From Escherichia coli (GTDB lineage: Bacteria > Pseudomonadota > Gammaproteobacteria > Enterobacterales > Enterobacteriaceae), in the NCBI RefSeq assembly GCF_003334315.1, contig NZ_QOWR01000070.1: DNA of 19,979 nt. One strand, given 5' to 3'. Every line of letters starts with the position of its first letter. Within the stretch, counting starts at the first letter, position 1. Below, in pieces: positions 9,284-19,775 of this stretch. Position numbers and translations under genes: made by a program. Under the pieces are notes generated by a model. That model had not been told where the DNA came from. It saw only the letters and a list, made by a program, of their open reading frames with translations, and did no database searches.

Positions 9284-9458
9284 GACGCCACCGATAACCG
9301 TTATTTATCAGACCAAAGAAACTGGCATCTACTTTAATGCAGATGATTGTGTCAGGGTAATTTATGAACGGTTAAAACTGTGAAAAATCAGTTAGTGATA
9401 AGTAAAAACTATCGCTACGTGAACCGGGTCACACTTTTTACTGATGACGGGAAAGGTT

Positions 9459-10769
9459 ATGGAGTCTTTGAATCAATTTGTTAATTCGCTTGCCCCAAAA
9501 TTATCGCACTGGCGACGTGATTTTCATCACTATGCAGAGTCTGGCTGGGTGGAATTCCGCACTGCCACCCTTGTTGCGGAAGAATTGCACCAGCTCGGCT
9601 ATTCACTGGCGCTGGGTCGCGAAGTAGTTAATGAAAGTAGCCGGATGGGATTACCTGATGAATTCACTCTACAACGCGAATTCGAGCGCGCTCGTCAACA
9701 GGGTGCGCTAGCACAATGGATTGCGGCTTTTGAAGGTGGTTTCACTGGTATCGTCGCCACCCTGGATACCGGTCGCCCCGGTCCGGTGATGGCTTTCCGT
9801 GTCGATATGGACGCGCTGGATCTCAGTGAAGAGCAGGATGTCAGCCATCGCCCCTACCGCGACGGTTTTGCGTCATGTAACGCCGGAATGATGCATGCCT
9901 GTGGTCATGATGGACATACCGCCATTGGGCTTGGGCTGGCGCATACCCTTAAACAGTTCGAGTCCGGACTACATGGCGTCATCAAACTGATTTTTCAGCC
10001 TGCAGAGGAAGGTACGCGTGGCGCGCGGGCGATGGTCGATGCAGGTGTCGTAGATGATGTTGATTATTTTACTGCCGTGCACATTGGCACTGGCGTACCT
10101 GCGGGCACCGTGGTGTGCGGCAGTGATAATTTTATGGCAACCACCAAATTTGACGCGCACTTCACCGGTACCGCCGCTCACGCAGGCGCAAAACCAGAAG
10201 ACGGTCACAATGCCTTGTTGGCGGCAGCACAAGCCACTCTTGCACTGCATGCAATCGCCCCGCACAGCGAAGGAGCTTCCAGAGTAAACGTGGGCGTTAT
10301 GCAGGCAGGAAGCGGTCGTAACGTTGTTCCTGCCTCGGCGTTGCTGAAAGTGGAAACACGCGGGGCCAGCGACGTCATTAATCAATATGTTTTTGACCGT
10401 GCACAACAAGCGATTCAGGGCGCAGCAACCATGTATGGTGTCGGCGTTGAAACTCGTCTGATGGGTGCAGCTACCGCCAGTTCTCCTTCGCCGCAATGGG
10501 TCGCATGGTTGCAAAGTCAGGCGGCTCAGGTCGCGGGGGTCAATCAGGCCATTGAACGTGTTGAAGCGCCAGCGGGTTCCGAAGATGCCACATTAATGAT
10601 GGCCCGCGTGCAGCAACATCAAGGGCAAGCCTCCTACGTGGTGTTTGGCACACAGCTGGCGGCAGGTCATCACAACGAAAAATTCGATTTTGACGAGCAG
10701 GTTCTCGCTATTGCCGTCGAAACGCTGGCGCGCACCGCGCTCAATTTTCCCTGGACGCGAGGTATCTGA
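9459..10769 (+). CDS. abgA: p-Aminobenzoyl-glutamate hydrolase subunit A, M20 peptidase family (436 aa from internal Met)
   Basis: M20/amidohydrolase metal-binding motifs (..MHACGHDGH..); GGAAAGG Shine-Dalgarno before ATG at 9459; first gene of the abgABT cluster. Confidence 0.9.
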   Translation: MESLNQFVNSLAPKLSHWRRDFHHYAESGWVEFRTATLVAEELHQLGYSLALGREVVNESSRMGLPDEFTLQREFERARQQGALAQWIAAFEGGFTGIVATLDTGRPGPVMAFRVDMDALDLSEEQDVSHRPYRDGFASCNAGMMHACGHDGHTAIGLGLAHTLKQFESGLHGVIKLIFQPAEEGTRGARAMVDAGVVDDVDYFTAVHIGTGVPAGTVVCGSDNFMATTKFDAHFTGTAAHAGAKPEDGHNALLAAAQATLALHAIAPHSEGASRVNVGVMQAGSGRNVVPASALLKVETRGASDVINQYVFDRAQQAIQGAATMYGVGVETRLMGAATASSPSPQWVAWLQSQAAQVAGVNQAIERVEAPAGSEDATLMMARVQQHQGQASYVVFGTQLAAGHHNEKFDFDEQVLAIAVETLARTALNFPWTRGI

Positions 10770-12214
10770 TGCAGGAAATCTATCGTTTTATCGACGATGC
10801 GATTGAAGCCGATCGCCAACGTTATACCGATATTGCCGATCAAATCTGGGATCATCCAGAAACACGTTTTGAAGAGTTCTGGTCAGCGGAGCATCTGGCT
10901 TCGGCGCTGGAATCTGCAGGTTTCACCGTTACCCGCAACGTAGGCAATATCCCAAATGCCTTTATTGCTTCGTTTGGTCAAGGCAAACCGGTTATCGCCC
11001 TGCTGGGAGAATATGACGCCCTGGCAGGTTTAAGTCAGCAAGCAGGTTGCGCGCAACCTACATCCGTGACGCCCGGTGAAAATGGTCACGGTTGCGGACA
11101 CAATTTGCTGGGAACCGCCGCCTTTGCCGCTGCAATAGCCGTCAAGAAATGGCTGGAACAATATGGGCAAGGCGGCACGGTGCGCTTTTATGGTTGTCCT
11201 GGCGAAGAAGGCGGCTCGGGTAAAACGTTCATGGTTCGCGAGGGGGTATTTGATGATGTGGATGCGGCACTCACCTGGCACCCGGAAGCCTTTGCCGGTA
11301 TGTTCAATACCCGCACGCTGGCAAACATTCAGGCATCATGGCGCTTTAAAGGGATCGCAGCACATGCCGCGAATTCCCCTCATTTGGGACGCAGCGCCCT
11401 TGATGCCGTAACGTTGATGACCACTGGCACCAACTTCCTCAACGAACATATTATTGAAAAAGCGCGCGTACACTATGCCATCACAAATAGCGGCGGGATC
11501 TCGCCCAACGTGGTCCAGGCGCAGGCAGAAGTGCTTTATCTTATCCGCGCCCCCGAAATGACCGACGTGCAGCATATTTTTGATCGGGTCGCCAAAATCG
11601 CCGAAGGTGCGGCATTGATGACCGAAACCACGGTTGAATGCCGCTTCGACAAAGCCTGTTCCAGTTATCTCCCGAATCGCACCTTAGAAAATGCCATGTA
11701 CCATGCCCTATCCCATTTTGGTACCCCGGAATGGAACTCCGAAGAACTGGCTTTTGCGAAACAAATTCAGGCTACGCTCACCCCCAACGATCGGCAAAAC
11801 AGTCTGAATAATATCGCAGCAACCGGTGGCGAAAACGGCAAGGCTTTTGCACTACGTCATCGTGAAACGGTACTGGCGAATGAGGTCGCTCCATATGCCG
11901 CCACCGATAACGTGCTTGCGGCATCGACTGATGTCGGCGACGTCAGTTGGAAACTGCCTGTTGCCCAGTGTTTCAGCCCCTGTTTTGCCGTCGGTACACC
12001 GCTACATACGTGGCAACTGGTTAGCCAGGGGCGAACATCTATTGCTCATAAAGGAATGCTGCTGGCGGCGAAAACTATGGCAGCAACCACAGTCAATCTC
12101 TTCATTGATTCAGGGCTATTGCAAGAATGCCAACAAGAGCATCAGCAAGTTACGGACACGCAACCGTATCACTGCCCTATCCCGAAAAACGTGACACCGT
12201 CACCTTTAAAATAA
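10769..12214 (+). CDS. abgB: p-Aminobenzoyl-glutamate hydrolase subunit B, M20 peptidase family (481 aa)
   Basis: M20 family motifs (..GHGCGHNLLG..); start overlaps the abgA stop (TGATG), suggesting translational coupling. Confidence 0.9.
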   Translation: MQEIYRFIDDAIEADRQRYTDIADQIWDHPETRFEEFWSAEHLASALESAGFTVTRNVGNIPNAFIASFGQGKPVIALLGEYDALAGLSQQAGCAQPTSVTPGENGHGCGHNLLGTAAFAAAIAVKKWLEQYGQGGTVRFYGCPGEEGGSGKTFMVREGVFDDVDAALTWHPEAFAGMFNTRTLANIQASWRFKGIAAHAANSPHLGRSALDAVTLMTTGTNFLNEHIIEKARVHYAITNSGGISPNVVQAQAEVLYLIRAPEMTDVQHIFDRVAKIAEGAALMTETTVECRFDKACSSYLPNRTLENAMYHALSHFGTPEWNSEELAFAKQIQATLTPNDRQNSLNNIAATGGENGKAFALRHRETVLANEVAPYAATDNVLAASTDVGDVSWKLPVAQCFSPCFAVGTPLHTWQLVSQGRTSIAHKGMLLAAKTMAATTVNLFIDSGLLQECQQEHQQVTDTQPYHCPIPKNVTPSPLK

Positions 12215-12247
12215 CAACAACGCAAACACAACAACCGAGGAATGCCC

Positions 12248-13774
12248 ATGAGTATGTCATCCATACCGTCGTCCTCCCAATCCGGGAAGCTCTATGGCTG
12301 GGTCGAAAGAATTGGTAACAAGGTTCCCCATCCTTTTTTGCTCTTTATCTATTTGATAATCGTACTCATGGTGACGACGGCAATTTTGTCAGCCTTTGGC
12401 GTCAGTGCGAAAAACCCGACCGATGGTACGCCGGTGGTGGTGAAAAACCTGCTCAGTGTGGAAGGATTACACTGGTTTTTACCCAATGTGATTAAAAACT
12501 TTAGCGGTTTTGCTCCACTTGGAGCGATCCTGGCGCTGGTTTTAGGTGCCGGCCTAGCGGAGCGCGTCGGCTTACTGCCAGCGCTAATGGTTAAAATGGC
12601 ATCGCATGTTAATGCCCGCTACGCCAGTTATATGGTGCTGTTTATTGCTTTTTTCAGCCACATTTCTTCCGATGCGGCGTTAGTGATCATGCCACCGATG
12701 GGTGCGCTGATTTTTCTGGCGGTGGGCAGGCATCCAGTTGCAGGTTTACTGGCTGCCATTGCAGGCGTAGGTTGCGGCTTTACGGCTAATTTACTGATTG
12801 TCACAACCGACGTGTTGCTGTCGGGGATCAGCACGGAAGCGGCGGCTGCGTTCAATCCGCAAATGCACGTCAGTGTAATTGATAACTGGTATTTTATGGC
12901 CAGCTCCGTAGTCGTACTGACGATTGTTGGCGGCTTGATAACCGACAAAATCATCGAGCCACGGTTAGGTCAATGGCAGGGAAACAGCGATGAGAAACTG
13001 CAGACATTGACCGAAAGTCAGCGTTTTGGTTTACGCATAGCAGGTGTCGTATCGCTACTTTTTATTGCTGCGATCGCGCTGATGGTGATCCCGGAAAACG
13101 GGATATTGCGCGATCCGATTAATCACACCGTGATGCCATCACCCTTTATTAAAGGTATCGTGCCACTAATCATTCTTTTTTTCTTTGTGGTTTCGCTGGC
13201 TTATGGCATCGCTACCCGCACAATTCGACGTCAGGCGGATTTACCGCATTTAATGATTGAACCGATGAAAGAGATGGCGGGATTTATCGTGATGGTTTTT
13301 CCCCTAGCCCAGTTTGTCGCCATGTTTAACTGGAGCAACATGGGGAAATTCATCGCCGTGGGGCTGACCGATATACTTGAAAGTTCAGGGCTTAGCGGCA
13401 TCCCGGCGTTTGTCGGTCTGGCGTTGCTTTCCTCTTTCTTATGCATGTTTATTGCCAGCGGTTCCGCAATCTGGTCGATTCTGGCCCCCATTTTCGTACC
13501 AATGTTTATGCTACTTGGCTTTCACCCGGCATTTGCGCAAATCCTCTTTCGTATTGCCGACTCATCCGTATTGCCTTTAGCGCCGGTATCTCCTTTTGTT
13601 CCACTGTTTCTTGGATTCCTGCAACGCTACAAACCAGACGCGAAACTGGGTACTTACTATTCGTTAGTCTTGCCCTATCCGCTTATCTTTTTGGTGGTAT
13701 GGCTGCTGATGTTGCTGGCGTGGTATCTTGTTGGTCTGCCGATAGGTCCGGGGATTTACCCACGTTTGTCTTAA
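12248..13774 (+). CDS. abgT: p-Aminobenzoyl-glutamate transporter AbgT (508 aa from Met at 12248)
   Basis: Polytopic membrane protein of the AbgT family; GAGGA Shine-Dalgarno 6 nt before ATG at 12248. Confidence 0.9.
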
Positions 13775-13784
13775 GAGAGAACGG

Positions 13785-14300
13785 ATGCTGAGATTACTTG
13801 AAGAAAAAATTGCCACGCCACTGGGTCCACTGTGGGTGATTTGCGATGAGCAATTTCGCCTGCGGGCGGTTGAATGGGAAGAGTACAGCGAACGCATGGT
13901 GCAGCTGCTGGACATCCATTATCGCAAAGAAGGCTATGAGCGCATTTCTGCCACCAACCCAGGCGGTTTAAGCGACAAGCTTCGTGATTATTTTGCCGGT
14001 AATCTTAGCATTATTGATACGCTTCCCACTGCCACAGGGGGGACGCCATTTCAGCGCGAAGTCTGGAAAACTCTACGCACTATCCCCTGCGGGCAGGTAA
14101 TGCATTACGGCCAACTGGCTGAACAATTGGGCCGCCCTGGCGCGGCGCGTGCCGTTGGTGCGGCAAACGGATCGAATCCCATCAGCATCGTCGTACCTTG
14201 CCATCGGGTTATTGGCCGAAACGGCACCATGACCGGATATGCAGGCGGAGTTCAGCGAAAAGAGTGGTTATTGCGCCACGAAGGTTATCTTTTGCTGTAA
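13785..14300 (+). CDS. ogt: O6-alkylguanine-DNA alkyltransferase Ogt (171 aa)
   Basis: Active-site PCHRV motif ([10 protein letters not shown]); 10 bp downstream of abgT. Confidence 0.92.
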
Positions 14301-14461
14301 ACATTAAACAATTTGTGCCAGCTTGTTCACACTTTTATGTAAAGTTACCCTTAACAACTTAAGGGTTTTCAAATAGATAGACATATATTTACATCTAATA
14401 TCGGAATTCTCTGCTGTTAAGGTTTGCTTAGACTTACTTGCTCCCTAAAAAGATGTTAAAA

Positions 14462-14475
14462 TTGACAAATATCAA
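14462..14475. promoter_or_regulatory. FNR box TTGAC-AAAT-ATCAA in the fnr promoter (autoregulatory site overlapping the transcription start region)
   Basis: Near-perfect FNR consensus palindrome ~20 bp upstream of the fnr start codon; fnr is known to be autoregulated. Confidence 0.7.
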
Positions 14476-14494
14476 TTACGGCTTGAGCAGACCT

Positions 14495-15247
14495 ATGATC
14501 CCGGAAAAGCGAATTATACGGCGCATTCAGTCTGGCGGTTGTGCTATCCATTGCCAGGATTGCAGCATCAGCCAGCTTTGCATCCCGTTCACACTCAACG
14601 AACATGAGCTTGATCAGCTTGATAATATCATTGAGCGGAAGAAGCCTATTCAGAAAGGCCAGACGCTGTTTAAGGCTGGTGATGAACTTAAATCGCTTTA
14701 TGCCATCCGCTCCGGTACGATTAAAAGTTATACCATCACTGAGCAAGGCGACGAGCAAATCACTGGTTTCCATTTAGCAGGCGACCTGGTGGGATTTGAC
14801 GCCATCGGCAGCGGCCATCACCCGAGCTTCGCGCAGGCGCTGGAAACCTCGATGGTATGTGAAATCCCGTTCGAAACGCTGGACGATTTGTCCGGTAAAA
14901 TGCCGAATCTGCGTCAGCAGATGATGCGTCTGATGAGCGGTGAAATCAAAGGCGATCAGGACATGATCCTGCTGTTGTCGAAGAAAAATGCCGAGGAACG
15001 TCTGGCTGCATTCATCTACAACCTGTCCCGTCGTTTTGCCCAACGCGGCTTCTCCCCTCGTGAATTCCGCCTGACGATGACTCGTGGCGATATCGGTAAC
15101 TATCTGGGCCTGACGGTAGAAACCATCAGCCGTCTGCTGGGTCGCTTCCAGAAAAGCGGCATGCTGGCAGTCAAAGGTAAATACATCACCATCGAAAATA
15201 ACGATGCGCTGGCCCAGCTTGCTGGTCATACGCGTAACGTTGCCTGA
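14495..15247 (+). CDS. fnr: Fumarate/nitrate reduction global regulator FNR (250 aa from Met at 14495)
   Basis: N-terminal Cys cluster for the [4Fe-4S] centre (..[16 protein letters not shown]..), CRP-family fold, C-terminal helix-turn-helix (..[19 protein letters not shown]..). Confidence 0.95.
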
Positions 15248-15398
15248 TTTTTCCGCATAACTCACTATCCTTCTGTCATATCATTAAATTTTTCTGATTT
15301 ATTGATCTGGCAGAAGGTTCATCACTGTTTCATTCACCAGATATGGGTTAATCTTTTAATTACAAACTGCGTTGACAGTTGTTGTAAGGAGACCCTGT

Positions 15399-16349
15399 AT
15401 GGCTATGTATCAGAACATGCTCGTTGTTATCGATCCTAACCAGGACGACCAACCAGCATTGCGGCGAGCTGTTTATTTACATCAACGGATTGGTGGCAAA
15501 ATTAAAGCCTTTTTGCCGATCTATGACTTCTCATACGAAATGACCACCCTGCTCTCCCCGGACGAACGTACCGCTATGCGTCAGGGCGTCATCAGCCAGC
15601 GTACAGCCTGGATCCACGAGCAGGCAAAATATTATCTCAATGCTGGCGTTCCCATTGAAATTAAAGTGGTCTGGCATAACCGTCCTTTCGAAGCCATCAT
15701 TCAGGAAGTGATCAGCGGCGGACACGATTTGGTGCTAAAAATGGCGCACCAACATGACCGTCTGGAAGCGGTGATTTTTACGCCAACGGACTGGCATCTG
15801 TTACGCAAATGCCCAAGCCCGGTGTGGATGGTGAAAGACCAGCCGTGGCCGGAAGGAGGCAAGGCGCTGGTGGCGGTGAATCTCGCCAGTGAAGAGCCGT
15901 ATCATAATGCGCTCAATGAAAAACTGGTCAAAGAGACGATCGAACTGGCAGAACAAGTCAACCATACCGAAGTTCATCTGGTTGGCGCTTATCCGGTAAC
16001 GCCAATTAATATCGCGATTGAACTGCCGGAATTTGACCCGAGCGTTTATAACGATGCCATTCGTGGGCAACATTTGCTGGCAATGAAAGCCCTGCGGCAG
16101 AAATTCGGCATTAATGAAAACATGACGCACGTAGAAAAAGGTCTGCCAGAAGAGGTGATTCCTGATTTGGCGGAGCACTTACAGGCGGGGATTGTGGTTC
16201 TGGGCACGGTAGGACGCACCGGTATTTCAGCAGCATTCCTCGGCAACACGGCGGAACAGGTGATTGATCATCTTCGCTGCGACCTGCTGGTCATTAAACC
16301 TGACCAGTATCAGACACCCGTTGAACTGGATGACGAAGAAGACGATTAA
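15399..16349 (+). CDS. uspE: Tandem-domain universal stress protein UspE (316 aa from Met at 15399)
   Basis: Two Usp domains; N-terminus [25 protein letters not shown].. matches K-12 UspE from memory. Confidence 0.9.
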
Positions 16350-16370
16350 CGACTCTTCAATAACTGACAA

Positions 16371-16396
16371 GGCCCGAGTTATCGGGCCTATTTTTT
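16371..16396 (+). terminator. Rho-independent terminator downstream of uspE (GGCCCGA-GTTA-TCGGGCC plus T-run); overlaps the end of convergent ynaJ
   Basis: 7-bp GC-rich stem, 4-nt loop, followed by TATTTTTT. Confidence 0.6.
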
Positions 16397-16398
16397 AC

Positions 16399-16656
16399 TT
16401 ACTGCTCTTCGCCGCCAAGGAAATAAATTCCCAACGGGATTGCCAGCAACACAGTAAAGACCAGGCTATAAACAAAAATCATCGATGACTGAATCACATA
16501 CATTGATGTCGTCCACTCAGACAGCGGAATATTGTACTGTTCTATAACGCCGCCGATGGTCGCGCGAGTCACAACCGACGCCGCAATAATGAAAACCGCC
16601 AACAAACCAAAGAGAAATTTCTTCCCTTTCGCTGACTTCAGTTTCGCCATAATCAT
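16399..16656 (-). CDS. ynaJ: Small inner-membrane protein YnaJ (DUF2534), 85 aa
   Basis: 85-aa ORF with two predicted transmembrane helices; position between uspE and ynaI as in K-12. Confidence 0.8.
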   Translation of the reverse strand: MIMAKLKSAKGKKFLFGLLAVFIIAASVVTRATIGGVIEQYNIPLSEWTTSMYVIQSSMIFVYSLVFTVLLAIPLGIYFLGGEEQ

Positions 16657-16899
16657 GATGTAATCCTTGTGCAGACAAATTTCTTGTTACCTAAACGTAA
16701 CAATACCATGACATTTCACCGTTGTCTGCTCTGAAAACCTCACCTCTTAGCTGGATTTACAATCAACGCATTGATTAGTTAGCTAATGTTGCTACTTCCT
16801 TCCCTGACTATTGATGATCTGAATGAATTGTCGCGGTAAAATAGCCCCGCCAGGGGTTTCCGGCATGACGACAATTATCTGGAGGAGCCTGATAAAACA

Positions 16900-17931
16900 A
16901 TGATCGCTGAACTGTTTACAAATAATGCGCTTAATCTGGTCATTATTTTCGGTAGCTGCGCAGCATTGATTCTGATGAGCTTTTGGTTTCGCCGTGGAAA
17001 TCGTAAAAGAAAAGGATTTTTATTCCATGCGGTGCAATTTTTAATCTACACCATAATTATCAGTGCTGTTGGTAGCATTATTAATTATGTTATAGAAAAC
17101 TATAAACTCAAATTTATCACCCCAGGCGTTATCGATTTTATCTGTACGTCCCTGATTGCGGTTATTCTGACGATTAAGCTATTTCTGCTGATTAATCAGT
17201 TTGAAAAACAGCAGATTAAAAAAGGTCGCGATATCACCAGTGCGCGGATTATGTCGCGTATCATCAAAATCACCATTATTGTGGTGCTTGTTCTGCTTTA
17301 TGGCGAACATTTCGGCATGAGCCTTTCTGGCTTGCTGACCTTTGGTGGTATTGGTGGTCTGGCTGTCGGTATGGCCGGTAAAGATATTCTGAGTAATTTC
17401 TTTTCCGGGATTATGCTCTATTTCGACCGTCCTTTCAGTATTGGCGACTGGATCCGTTCACCGGACAGAAATATCGAAGGTACAGTAGCGGAAATTGGCT
17501 GGCGAATTACCAAAATTACGACCTTTGATAATCGTCCATTGTACGTACCGAACTCGCTGTTTTCGTCGATCAGCGTAGAAAACCCAGGACGAATGACCAA
17601 CCGCCGCATTACCACGACCATTGGTTTACGTTATGAGGATGCGGCAAAAGTGGGCGTTATTGTCGAAGCTGTACGTGAGATGCTGAAAAATCACCCGGCC
17701 ATCGACCAGCGACAAACCTTACTGGTTTATTTCAACCAGTTTGCTGACTCTTCATTGAATATTATGGTTTATTGCTTTACCAAAACCACGGTATGGGCTG
17801 AATGGCTTGCTGCACAGCAAGACGTTTATTTGAAGATTATCGATATTGTACAGTCACACGGCGCGGACTTTGCCTTCCCCAGCCAGACGCTGTATATGGA
17901 TAACATTACACCGCCGGAACAGGGTCGCTAA
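16900..17931 (+). CDS. ynaI: MscS-family mechanosensitive channel YnaI (343 aa)
   Basis: N-terminal transmembrane helices followed by an MscS-like pore and beta domain (..[22 protein letters not shown]..); 343 aa. Confidence 0.88.
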
Positions 17932-17981
17932 ATCAGACATCACTGGCGTTATGCACAAGGGTAACGCCAGTTCCCATCACA

Positions 17982-19595
17982 TCAATGCTTCACAATATAC
18001 ATAGTCCGACTGTACGCCACATCTTCAGGATTATTAATGGGATAACCTTTCAGCCACGGCTTGATTAATCGTCCATTGGTATATTGATAAATTGGTGCAA
18101 TCGGTGCTTGCTCCATGAGGATTTTTTCTGCCGCGTTGTAATCGGCATTACGCGCTTTAACGGTATTTTCCGTCGATGCCTGGGCCAGAACTTTGTCATA
18201 TGCCGGATTGTTAAAGCGTGAAATATTTCCTGAATGCGTTGACGTTAATAATGTCAGGAAAGTGGAGGGTTCATTATAATCCCCCACCCACGAGGCGCGG
18301 ATAACATCAAAATTGCCGGTGTTACGGCTATCGATATAGGTTTTCCATTCCTGATTTTGCAATTTAACATCTACGCCAAGGTTCTTTTTCCACATCGATG
18401 CTACAGCAATCGCAATTTTTTGATGGTTTTCTGAAGTGTTATACAAAAGCGTCAGCTTCAGCGGTTTTTGCGGACCATAACCAGCTGCGCTCAACAAAGT
18501 TTTTGCCTGCGCATTCAGTTCTTCCTGACTCATTTGTTCAAACGGCGAAGGTTCCGGCGTAAATCCCGCGGTAACATCTGGTGTAAAATGCCACGCTGGC
18601 TTTTCGCCCGTCCCTAATACTTTTTCGGTCATCAGGCGGCGATCTATCGTCATACTTAATGCCAGACGAACGCGCTGATCTGCCGTCGGCCCTTTTTGCG
18701 TGTTAAACGCATAATAATAGGTCCCGAGCTGCGGCGGCGTATAAACCTGCCCCGGAATATCCTTCAACAGCTTCTGATACATATTTTTCGGGAAGGATTC
18801 GGTGATATCAATATCCCCCGCGAGGTAACGCTTAGTGGCTGCGGATTCCTGATTAATTGGCAGGAAGGTCACTTTTTGCAGTACCGTTTTGGCGTTATCC
18901 CAATAATGGGTATTCGGTACCACGACCAGTTTTTCATTGACTACGCGCTCTTTAAGAACATAAGCGCCATTGCCGATCAGATTTCCGGGTTTCGTCCACT
19001 CTTTACCGCTTTCTACGTTGGCTTTTTGCACCGGGAAGAAGGCAAAGTTAGCGGTTAAATTCACAAACCACGGCAACGGTTTATCAAGCTGAATTTTCAA
19101 AGTATGGGCATCAACTGCGGTGACGCCAAGCTGGTCAGGCGTAGCTTTACCATCAATAATCGCCTGTGCGTTGTTGATTCCCGCCAGCGCGGCAAACCAT
19201 GCAAATGGCGACAATGTTTTTGGGTCCACCAGACGTTGCCAGCTGTAGACAAAATCTTGCGCCGTTACCGGTGTGCCATCCGCCCATTTTGCGTTATCGC
19301 GCAGGGTAAAAGTCCAGATACGGTTGTCATTACTTTTCCACTGAGTCGCAACGCCGGGGACAATCTCCCCTTTTTCGTTCTGATTCACCAGTCCTTCAAA
19401 CAGATCGCGAATGACCTGAATCTCTGGCAGGCCCACGGCTTTAGCGGGATCCAGCGACGCAGGCTCATCTTTAATGTGGCGCACCAGCTCCTGCTTCTCT
19501 GCCAGTACTGTGCCGCTCGGAACTTCTGCAGCATACGAAAGAGAAATGCTGCTGACCAACAGCGCACAACACGTGACTGAAACAGAGTGCTTCAT
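17982..19595 (-). CDS. mppA: Periplasmic murein tripeptide-binding protein MppA (537 aa from Met at 19595), OppA paralogue
   Basis: Signal peptide (MKHSVSVTCCALLVSSISLSYA), SBP family 5 fold; N-terminus matches K-12 MppA from memory. Confidence 0.9.
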   Translation of the reverse strand: MKHSVSVTCCALLVSSISLSYAAEVPSGTVLAEKQELVRHIKDEPASLDPAKAVGLPEIQVIRDLFEGLVNQNEKGEIVPGVATQWKSNDNRIWTFTLRDNAKWADGTPVTAQDFVYSWQRLVDPKTLSPFAWFAALAGINNAQAIIDGKATPDQLGVTAVDAHTLKIQLDKPLPWFVNLTANFAFFPVQKANVESGKEWTKPGNLIGNGAYVLKERVVNEKLVVVPNTHYWDNAKTVLQKVTFLPINQESAATKRYLAGDIDITESFPKNMYQKLLKDIPGQVYTPPQLGTYYYAFNTQKGPTADQRVRLALSMTIDRRLMTEKVLGTGEKPAWHFTPDVTAGFTPEPSPFEQMSQEELNAQAKTLLSAAGYGPQKPLKLTLLYNTSENHQKIAIAVASMWKKNLGVDVKLQNQEWKTYIDSRNTGNFDVIRASWVGDYNEPSTFLTLLTSTHSGNISRFNNPAYDKVLAQASTENTVKARNADYNAAEKILMEQAPIAPIYQYTNGRLIKPWLKGYPINNPEDVAYSRTMYIVKH

Positions 19596-19775
19596 AAGTT
19601 TCCCTCTAACCGACATTAAAATTGATGCGTAATTATTTGTTTCGCCTTAAAGAAATGCAAACAACTTCCATCAAAAAAGTGACAAAGGAAGCATCAAATG
19701 TTTTAAGTATCAATATATCAAATCAGATTTAGTGTAAATAATAGTCTCCAAAATGCGGTAAAGCACATAGAACTC

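What the first reader, a model, noticed from the sequence alone, without database searches (positions are those of the whole stretch)
16657..16899. ynaJ-ynaI intergenic region is intact (no IS5), unlike my recollection of K-12 MG1655
In MG1655 I recall an IS5 copy (insH) between ynaI and ynaJ. Here the two genes are separated by only 243 bp of ordinary divergent-promoter sequence, while IS1 copies are present elsewhere in the window. This points to a non-K-12 lineage with an IS1-rich complement (E. coli B-like or Shigella-like), although all genes in this window remain intact.
Basis: partly seen in the sequence, partly recalled or inferred. Interest (0 to 1): 0.25.

Follow-up and report, generated by a model that had tools for sequence, protein, structure and literature searches.

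The report
Ordinary empty IS5 site between ynaJ-ynaI
The 243-bp gap between ynaJ and ynaI is the normal, ancestral E. coli arrangement found in about 93% of complete genomes; the IS5 copy there is a known peculiarity of laboratory K-12 strains, so this is ordinary.

Summary
ynaJ (16399..16656, -) and ynaI (16900..17931, +) are separated by 243 bp with no insertion sequence. The window's spacer equals the MG1655 flanks with the 1195-bp IS5 and one copy of its CTAA target duplication removed, at 0 mismatches, so it is the exact unoccupied target site (TTAG at 16779..16782). Among 5426 complete E. coli genomes, 5056 have the spacer uninterrupted. 355 carry IS5 at exactly this junction, and all 60 inspected are K-12 laboratory derivatives. 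The empty site therefore only says "not K-12". The lineage guess is mostly wrong. E. coli B (REL606) has no IS1 anywhere in this region and is no closer than K-12 (63 against 53 mismatches). The window's marker proteins are labelled only Escherichia coli, not Shigella. The closest complete genomes (TW01221, LCP22S3_I2; 7-8 mismatches in 19.3 kb) lack both IS1 insertions. The window is an entire 19,979-bp draft contig (QOWR01000070.1), and the two IS1 fragments at its ends are where the short-read assembly broke on a repeat. All genes are intact except the Rac gene rcbA, which is cut by the left IS1. Already known; low interest.

The parts
16657..16899 (.). ynaJ-ynaI intergenic spacer, 243 bp, uninterrupted; the unoccupied allele of the K-12 IS5F insertion site
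   Evidence: Equals the MG1655 left flank (121 bp) plus right flank (126 bp) minus one CTAA copy, 0 mismatches. Uninterrupted in 5056 of 5426 complete E. coli genomes.
16779..16782 (.). TTAG (CTAA on the other strand): the 4-bp target that is duplicated on either side of IS5F in K-12, present here once
   Evidence: In MG1655 the left flank ends in CTAA and the right flank begins with CTAA. Removing one copy reproduces the window exactly. The blastn pieces overlap at window 16779..16782.
16399..16656 (-). ynaJ (DUF2534 family inner-membrane protein, 85 aa), intact
   Evidence: 100% nucleotide identity to MG1655 b1332; annotated as ynaJ in matching genomes.
16900..17931 (+). ynaI (MscS-family low-conductance mechanosensitive channel, 343 aa), intact
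   Evidence: 1 synonymous difference from MG1655 b1330; annotation.
1..453 (+). 3' part of an IS1 copy (IS1 positions 316..768), running off the contig end; an assembly breakpoint
   Evidence: Right terminal repeat at 431..453. 453 bp align to a full IS1A copy of TW01221 with 2 mismatches. PF03400 DDE_Tnp_IS1 is called at 1..438.
454..493 (+). Remnant of the Rac prophage gene rcbA (last 40 of 210 nt), cut by the left IS1
   Evidence: blastn against MG1655 rcbA aligns only nt 171..210 to window 454..493.
19776..19979 (+). 5' part of an IS1 copy (IS1 positions 1..204), inserted 180 bp upstream of the annotated mppA start (19595) and running off the contig end
   Evidence: Left terminal repeat at 19776..19798. 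204 bp are 100% identical to an IS1A copy of TW01221. The junction maps to MG1655 position 1393047 in the pgrR-mppA spacer.

Best explanation
The 243-bp ynaJ-ynaI spacer is the ancestral, never-occupied form of the site into which IS5 (IS5F/insH4, b1331) inserted in the ancestor of E. coli K-12. IS5 duplicates a 4-bp YTAR target when it inserts. K-12 has CTAA on both sides of the element, and the window has it once, with identical flanks. The spacer does what it does in almost all E. coli: it carries the upstream regions of the two divergently transcribed genes. That last step is inferred from the gene arrangement, and no promoter was mapped here. The source is a non-K-12 Escherichia coli whose sequence in this region is very close to K-12, apart from a divergent ogt-abgT-abgB patch. 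The window is one complete contig of a short-read draft assembly (QOWR01000070.1 of GCA_003334315.1). The contig ends inside two directly oriented IS1 copies, one in Rac rcbA and one upstream of mppA. Both are private to a small lineage, and both are where the assembler stopped.
For: Exact reconstruction of the empty site from MG1655, 0 mismatches in 243 bp, target CTAA. MG1655 annotation of IS5F between b1330 and b1332. Census: 5056 of 5426 complete genomes uninterrupted; 355 with the IS5 junction, and all 60 listed are K-12 lab derivatives such as MG1655, C600, DH5alpha, DH1, J53 and NCM3722. The same empty site occurs in REL606 and at 99.2-100% identity in O157:H7, O104:H4-type and many other strains. 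Literature: this IS5 is copy 4 of 11 in BW25113, at ynaI/ynaJ (PMC11677980), and is 'the known IS5 element b1331 to the right of ynaI' (PMC2072959). Non-K-12 origin: 53 mismatches and 1 gap against MG1655, against 7-8 for TW01221 and LCP22S3_I2. Contig identity: the held 12,024 bases match exactly, and the contig length is 19,979. Exact marker proteins are labelled Escherichia coli only.
Against: Nothing contradicts the empty-site reading. Four limits remain. Only 60 of the 355 IS5-occupied genomes were looked at by name. The organism label comes from protein records, not from the assembly record itself. No promoter was found by the consensus scan (0 hits, 1.2 expected by chance), so the regulatory content of the spacer is assumed, not shown. 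What lies beyond the two IS1 copies cannot be seen.
Confidence: 0.95

Rival explanations
1. The source is a K-12 derivative that lost IS5F by precise excision, which restored the original spacer.
For: The spacer, ynaJ, uspE, fnr, smrA, dgcM and zntB are 100% identical to MG1655.
Against: There are 53 mismatches and 1 gap against MG1655 over 19.3 kb, 40 of them in ogt-abgT-abgB, whereas a true K-12 derivative contig differs by 1 in 14.5 kb. The window has two IS1 insertions absent from MG1655. The empty site is the state of 93% of E. coli.
Confidence: 0.01
2. An IS5 is really present in the source genome, but the short-read assembler skipped over it, so the intact spacer is an assembly artefact.
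For: The window is a short-read draft contig whose ends are set by repeats.
Against: Assemblers break at repeats rather than splice them out. A K-12 derivative contig from the same collection appears to stop about 25 bp inside IS5F; this is inferred from its coordinates. An occupied site would yield no reads that join the two half-spacers through a single TTAG. Independent assemblies of the same lineage are 100% identical to the window as far as their sequence is held here (to window 14513 and 13723). The 19,315-bp length of DABAWT010000075.1 fits an unbroken run to the right-hand IS1 boundary, but its spacer was not read.
Confidence: 0.02
3. The source belongs to the E. coli B lineage or to Shigella.
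For: Two IS1 copies lie within 20 kb. Every contig carrying the window's DbpA variant is shorter than 50 kb, as expected for an IS-dense genome. Shigella chromosomes are not in the E. coli collection, so they could not be compared directly.
Against: REL606 has no IS1 in the 49 kb around this region, has an intact rcbA, and differs by 63 mismatches. Neither IS1 junction exists in any of 5426 complete E. coli genomes, so the two IS1 junctions are not found in REL606; BL21 was not looked at by name. The exact IntR and DbpA sequences are labelled only Escherichia coli, TaxID 562, while other members of the same clusters do carry Shigella labels. The nearest genomes are commensal or livestock E. 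coli.
Confidence: 0.04

Closest known systems
IS5F / insH4 (b1331) insertion between ynaI and ynaJ in E. coli K-12
   Same: Same locus, same flanking sequence to the base, and the same 4-bp target (CTAA/TTAG).
   Different: The window is the unoccupied allele: no IS5, and a single copy of the target. In K-12 this IS5 can recombine with a second IS5 near ogt and delete ynaJ-uspE-fnr (PMC2072959). That route does not exist here.
The ynaJ-ynaI spacer of E. coli B REL606 and of most natural E. coli
   Same: A 243-bp uninterrupted spacer flanked by the same genes.
   Different: None within the spacer. The window differs from REL606 elsewhere: 63 mismatches and two IS1 insertions.
IS1 insertions in the pgrR-mppA spacer and in the Rac ralR/rcbA region of other E. 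coli
   Same: IS1 in the same orientation and the same short stretches of DNA. One example is strain 2017.15.02CC, 6 bp away and with its own 9-bp duplication AAGCACATA. Others are strain 2018-05-2CC and contig SAHT01000062.1, with IS1 further into Rac, on the far side of rcbA.
   Different: The insertion points differ, so these are independent events. The window's two junctions are found in no complete genome, only in a few draft assemblies and read sets.

Membership tests
Unoccupied IS5 target site (empty allele of K-12 IS5F) | Flanks collinear with the occupied allele once the element and one target copy are removed | tested here: met
   243 of 243 bases identical.
Unoccupied IS5 target site (empty allele of K-12 IS5F) | A 4-bp YTAR target present once at the insertion point | tested here: met
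   CTAA (TTAG on the + strand) at 16779..16782. It is duplicated in MG1655 and single here. That IS5 targets YTAR, and CTAA/CTAG, comes from established knowledge and PMC11677980.
Unoccupied IS5 target site (empty allele of K-12 IS5F) | No IS5 sequence or footprint at the site | tested here: met
   No match to the IS5 terminal 35 bp anywhere in the window at up to 3 mismatches; no extra bases in the spacer.
E. coli K-12 lineage | IS5F present between ynaI and ynaJ | tested here: not met
   Absent, although present in 355 genomes, of which the 60 inspected are all K-12 derivatives.
E. coli K-12 lineage | Near-zero nucleotide divergence from MG1655 | tested here: not met
   53 mismatches and 1 gap in 19.3 kb, against 1 in 14.5 kb for a K-12 derivative.
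E. coli B lineage (REL606/BL21) | Same IS content and near-identity in this region | tested here: not met
   REL606 has no IS1 in the region and differs by 63 mismatches and 1 gap. Neither junction is found in any complete genome.
Shigella | Organism assignment or a Shigella-specific genome background (ipaH, pINV, heavy pseudogenisation) | tested here: inconclusive
   The exact marker proteins are labelled only Escherichia coli, and no pseudogenes occur among 20 chromosomal genes. However, no Shigella chromosome was available for comparison, and the assembly record itself was not read.
IS1 | 23-bp terminal inverted repeats and an IS1 transposase reading frame | tested here: met
   Exact left repeat at 19776..19798 and exact right repeat at 431..453. 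99.6-100% identity to an annotated IS1A copy. PF03400 hit on the end ORF. Only fragments are visible, so target duplications could not be checked.

The most novel reading that the evidence does not exclude
The most unusual reading still open concerns the two directly oriented IS1 copies that bracket 19.3 kb, from xisR and intR of Rac through ttcA, fnrS, McaS, the abg operon, ogt, fnr, uspE, ynaJ and ynaI to mppA. They could make this block a unit that is deleted, amplified or mobilised as a composite IS1 element in this lineage. That would be an IS1 counterpart of the IS5-IS5 recombination that deletes ynaJ-uspE-fnr in some K-12 stocks. The same data would also fit a circular IS1-plus-segment molecule, because the two contig ends are non-overlapping parts of one IS1 in the same orientation.
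Probability: 0.05. Interest if true: 0.25.

Novelty: already known. Interest (0 to 1): 0.05.

Why it matters
It matters little. The result is a reminder that K-12 is the exception at this locus and that the absence of IS5F is the species norm, so it carries almost no phylogenetic information. One practical point: in K-12 this IS5 copy takes part in recombination that removes fnr in some stock cultures (PMC2072959), and strains with the empty site lack that particular instability. Here two direct IS1 copies could in principle create a comparable one. A methodological point for the scan: windows that are whole draft contigs will often begin and end in IS fragments, and this should not be read as local biology.

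Tried and rejected
(1) I searched for the window's two IS1 junctions in 5426 complete E. coli genomes, hoping to name the strain. No contiguous full-identity match was found, only nearby independent IS1 insertions.

(2) I searched the literature for the assembly, WGS-prefix and run accessions (QOWR, SAHT, GCA_003334315, GCA_004172665, GCA_012531215 and several SRR/DRR ids). There were no hits, so the organism label had to be taken from protein records.

(3) I used DbpA Q442R as a lineage marker. It is partly misleading, because the same change arose independently in a K-12 derivative (L005). IntR K191N was the specific marker.

(4) A sigma-70 consensus scan of the spacer found no promoter-like site, so no promoter positions are claimed.

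(5) An Rfam scan of the whole window found only FnrS and McaS, and nothing in the spacer.

(6) I tried to read Sawers 2005 (PMC1070394) on IS5 upstream of fnr; it is not held.

(7) I considered a skipped IS5 (assembly artefact) and precise excision from K-12. Both are rejected for the reasons given under the rival explanations.

Full report
**Observation**

The window holds an 85-aa ORF at 16399..16656 (-) and a 343-aa ORF at 16900..17931 (+), separated by 243 bp at 16657..16899. A megablast of 16399..17931 against 5426 complete E. coli genomes matched 5423 of them. The features under the match are annotated ynaJ (DUF2534 family protein) and ynaI (low-conductance mechanosensitive channel). The coordinates and gene names in the finding are therefore right. 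No IS5 end occurs anywhere in the window at up to 3 mismatches.

**The recollection about K-12**

NC_000913.3 annotates 'insertion sequence:IS5F' at 1396044..1397238, with insH4 (b1331). It lies between ynaI (b1330, 1394891..1395922) and ynaJ (b1332, 1397365..1397622). Two papers agree:
- PMC11677980 lists this copy as IS5 number 4 of 11 in BW25113, at ynaI/ynaJ.
- PMC2072959 calls it 'the known IS5 element b1331 to the right of ynaI'.

**What the spacer is**

In MG1655 the element is flanked by 121 bp on the ynaI side, ending in CTAA, and 126 bp on the ynaJ side, beginning with CTAA. Joining the two flanks and dropping one CTAA gives 243 bp that match the window's spacer at every base. The window is therefore the exact unoccupied target site. 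The 4-bp target lies at 16779..16782, TTAG on the + strand. CTAA fits the YTAR target preference of IS5 (established knowledge; CTAA/CTAG are named as insertion sites in PMC11677980).

**How common each state is**

Among the 5426 complete genomes:

| State of the ynaJ-ynaI spacer | Genomes | Source |
|---|---|---|
| Uninterrupted 243-bp spacer (one place covering at least 80% of it) | 5056 | |
| IS5 at the exact K-12 junction (100 bp flank + 100 bp IS5 query) | 355 | |
| Something else | about 12 | |

- The split cases sampled for the spacer query are K-12 lab strains (JM83, JM109, W3110, AML002_par).
- All 60 listed genomes with the IS5 junction are laboratory K-12 derivatives, including MG1655 sublines, C600, J53, DH5alpha, DH1, NCM3722 and RR1.
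- One of the 'something else' cases is strain JMF1. It carries a different element of about 1.1 kb with a single 351-aa 'integrase core domain' ORF, inserted at window 16729..16733, 46 bp from the IS5 target.
- The empty site is the species norm and the ancestral state. It occurs at 98.8-100% identity in strains as different as O157:H7, O145 and O104:H4.

**What the spacer does**

The two genes are divergently transcribed, so their upstream regions must lie in these 243 bp. This is inferred from the arrangement. The consensus scan found no sigma-70-like site (0 found, 1.2 expected by chance), and Rfam found nothing in the spacer. The K-12 insertion sits in the middle of the spacer, 121 bp from the ynaI start codon and 126 bp from the ynaJ start codon. 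ynaI mRNA is readily detected in a K-12 strain (PMC3508906). The insertion therefore evidently leaves a working ynaI promoter attached to the gene. Whether it changes expression levels is untested.

**Lineage**

Mismatches over window 454..19775:

| Compared genome | Difference | Source |
|---|---|---|
| MG1655 (K-12) | 53 mismatches + 1 gap | |
| REL606 (E. coli B) | 63 mismatches + 1 gap | |
| TW01221 (human isolate) | 7 mismatches | |
| LCP22S3_I2 (pig isolate) | 8 mismatches | |

- Forty of the differences from MG1655 lie in ogt (8), abgT (23) and abgB (9). Outside that patch the sequence is almost identical to K-12.
- The source is therefore a non-K-12 E. coli that is very close to K-12 in this region.
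- E. coli B is excluded. REL606 has the same empty ynaJ-ynaI site but no IS1 anywhere in the 49 kb examined, a complete rcbA and a clean pgrR-mppA spacer.
- Neither IS1 junction of the window exists as a contiguous full-identity match in any complete E. coli genome.
- The nearest case upstream of mppA, strain 2017.15.02CC, has its IS1 6 bp away with its own 9-bp duplication, so it is an independent insertion.
- The IS1 copies near rcbA in strain 2018-05-2CC and in draft contig SAHT01000062.1 are also at other positions.

**Where the window comes from**

Two amino-acid changes set the window apart from K-12 and from its nearest relatives: IntR K191N and DbpA Q442R.
- Exact-sequence look-up of the IntR variant returned NCBI contig QOWR01000070.1 of assembly GCA_003334315.1. 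Its length is 19,979 bp, the same as the window, and the gene coordinates are the same.
- The 12,024 bases held for that contig are identical to the start of the window.
- The window is therefore a complete contig of a short-read draft assembly. The IS1 fragments at its ends (IS1 positions 316..768 at 1..453, and 1..204 at 19776..19979) are where the assembler stopped on a multi-copy repeat.
- Other assemblies show the same block. DABAWT010000075.1 is 19,315 bp, starts at window 458 and is 100% identical over the part held. A Logan contig starts at window 427.
- The exact IntR and DbpA sequences are labelled only 'Escherichia coli', TaxID 562, by NCBI and UniRef, whereas other members of the same protein cluster do carry Shigella labels. 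This argues against a Shigella source, although the assembly record itself could not be read.
- DbpA Q442R also turned up in a K-12 derivative (1 mismatch to MG1655). From its coordinates, that contig would end about 25 bp inside IS5F. This shows the change arose twice. It also illustrates that an occupied IS5 site breaks a short-read contig rather than being skipped.

**Gene integrity**

Every chromosomal gene from ttcA to mppA has the same length as in MG1655 and no internal stops, with 0-5 amino-acid substitutions each. FnrS and McaS are 100% identical and score far above the Rfam thresholds. The exception is the Rac prophage gene rcbA: only its last 40 nt remain, at 454..493, next to the left IS1. 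The ralA antitoxin RNA region is not in the window.

**Verdict**

It shows only that the source is not K-12. The suggested E. coli B affinity is refuted and the Shigella affinity has no support. The presence of IS1 at both ends of the window is largely a consequence of how draft assemblies break. Nothing here is new.

Noticed in passing
window 1..19979 (ends 1..453 and 19776..19979): The window is an entire draft contig (QOWR01000070.1 of GCA_003334315.1, 19,979 bp). Its two ends are non-overlapping fragments of IS1 in the same orientation, so the window boundaries are assembly breakpoints on a repeat, not a biological unit.
   Followed up: yes
window 454..493: The Rac prophage gene rcbA is cut by the left IS1 and only its last 40 nt remain; ralA and ralR are not in the window. 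Whether this is a simple insertion or an IS1-mediated adjacent deletion cannot be seen. A related draft contig (L006, SAHT01000062.1) has a complete rcbA and ralR, with IS1 further out.
   Followed up: partly
window 19656..19775 (pgrR-mppA spacer): This AT-rich stretch upstream of mppA is a recurrent IS1 target. 14 complete genomes have an IS1 within or next to the 120 bp flanking the window's junction, at several different positions. One is 6 bp away, in the same orientation, with its own 9-bp duplication AAGCACATA.
   Followed up: partly
window 454..19775: Two directly oriented IS1 copies bracket 19.3 kb that includes fnr, uspE, ogt, the abg operon, fnrS and mcaS. Recombination between them could delete or amplify the block, comparable to the IS5-IS5 deletion of ynaJ-uspE-fnr reported in K-12 stocks (PMC2072959). 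This is inference only.
   Followed up: no
window 10769..14300 (abgB, abgT, ogt): 40 of the 53 mismatches to MG1655 fall in these three adjacent genes (98.5-99.4% identity), while most other genes are 99.9-100% identical. This looks like a small recombination patch relative to K-12.
   Followed up: no
L013 (E. coli JMF1), equivalent to window 16729..16733: A wild isolate from a wildebeest carries a different insertion of about 1.1 kb, with a single 351-aa 'integrase core domain' ORF, in the same ynaJ-ynaI spacer. It lies 46 bp from the K-12 IS5 target, and the blast pieces overlap by 5 bp at the junction. The element was not identified further.
   Followed up: partly
L005 (Logan SRR8901689_87); window 3189: The DbpA Q442R change that marks the window's lineage also occurs in a K-12 derivative (1 mismatch to MG1655 in 14.5 kb), so it arose at least twice. 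From its coordinates, that contig should end about 25 bp inside IS5F.
   Followed up: partly
window 16848..16865 (-) and 16370..16389 (+): There are two terminator-like hairpins. One lies between the convergent uspE and ynaJ genes and is probably their shared terminator. The other is a GC-rich stem-loop 35-52 nt upstream of the ynaI start codon, on the opposite strand, of unknown significance.
   Followed up: no
and summaries: Six matches to the ynaJ-ynaI region were on records classed as plasmids rather than chromosomes. They were not examined.
   Followed up: no
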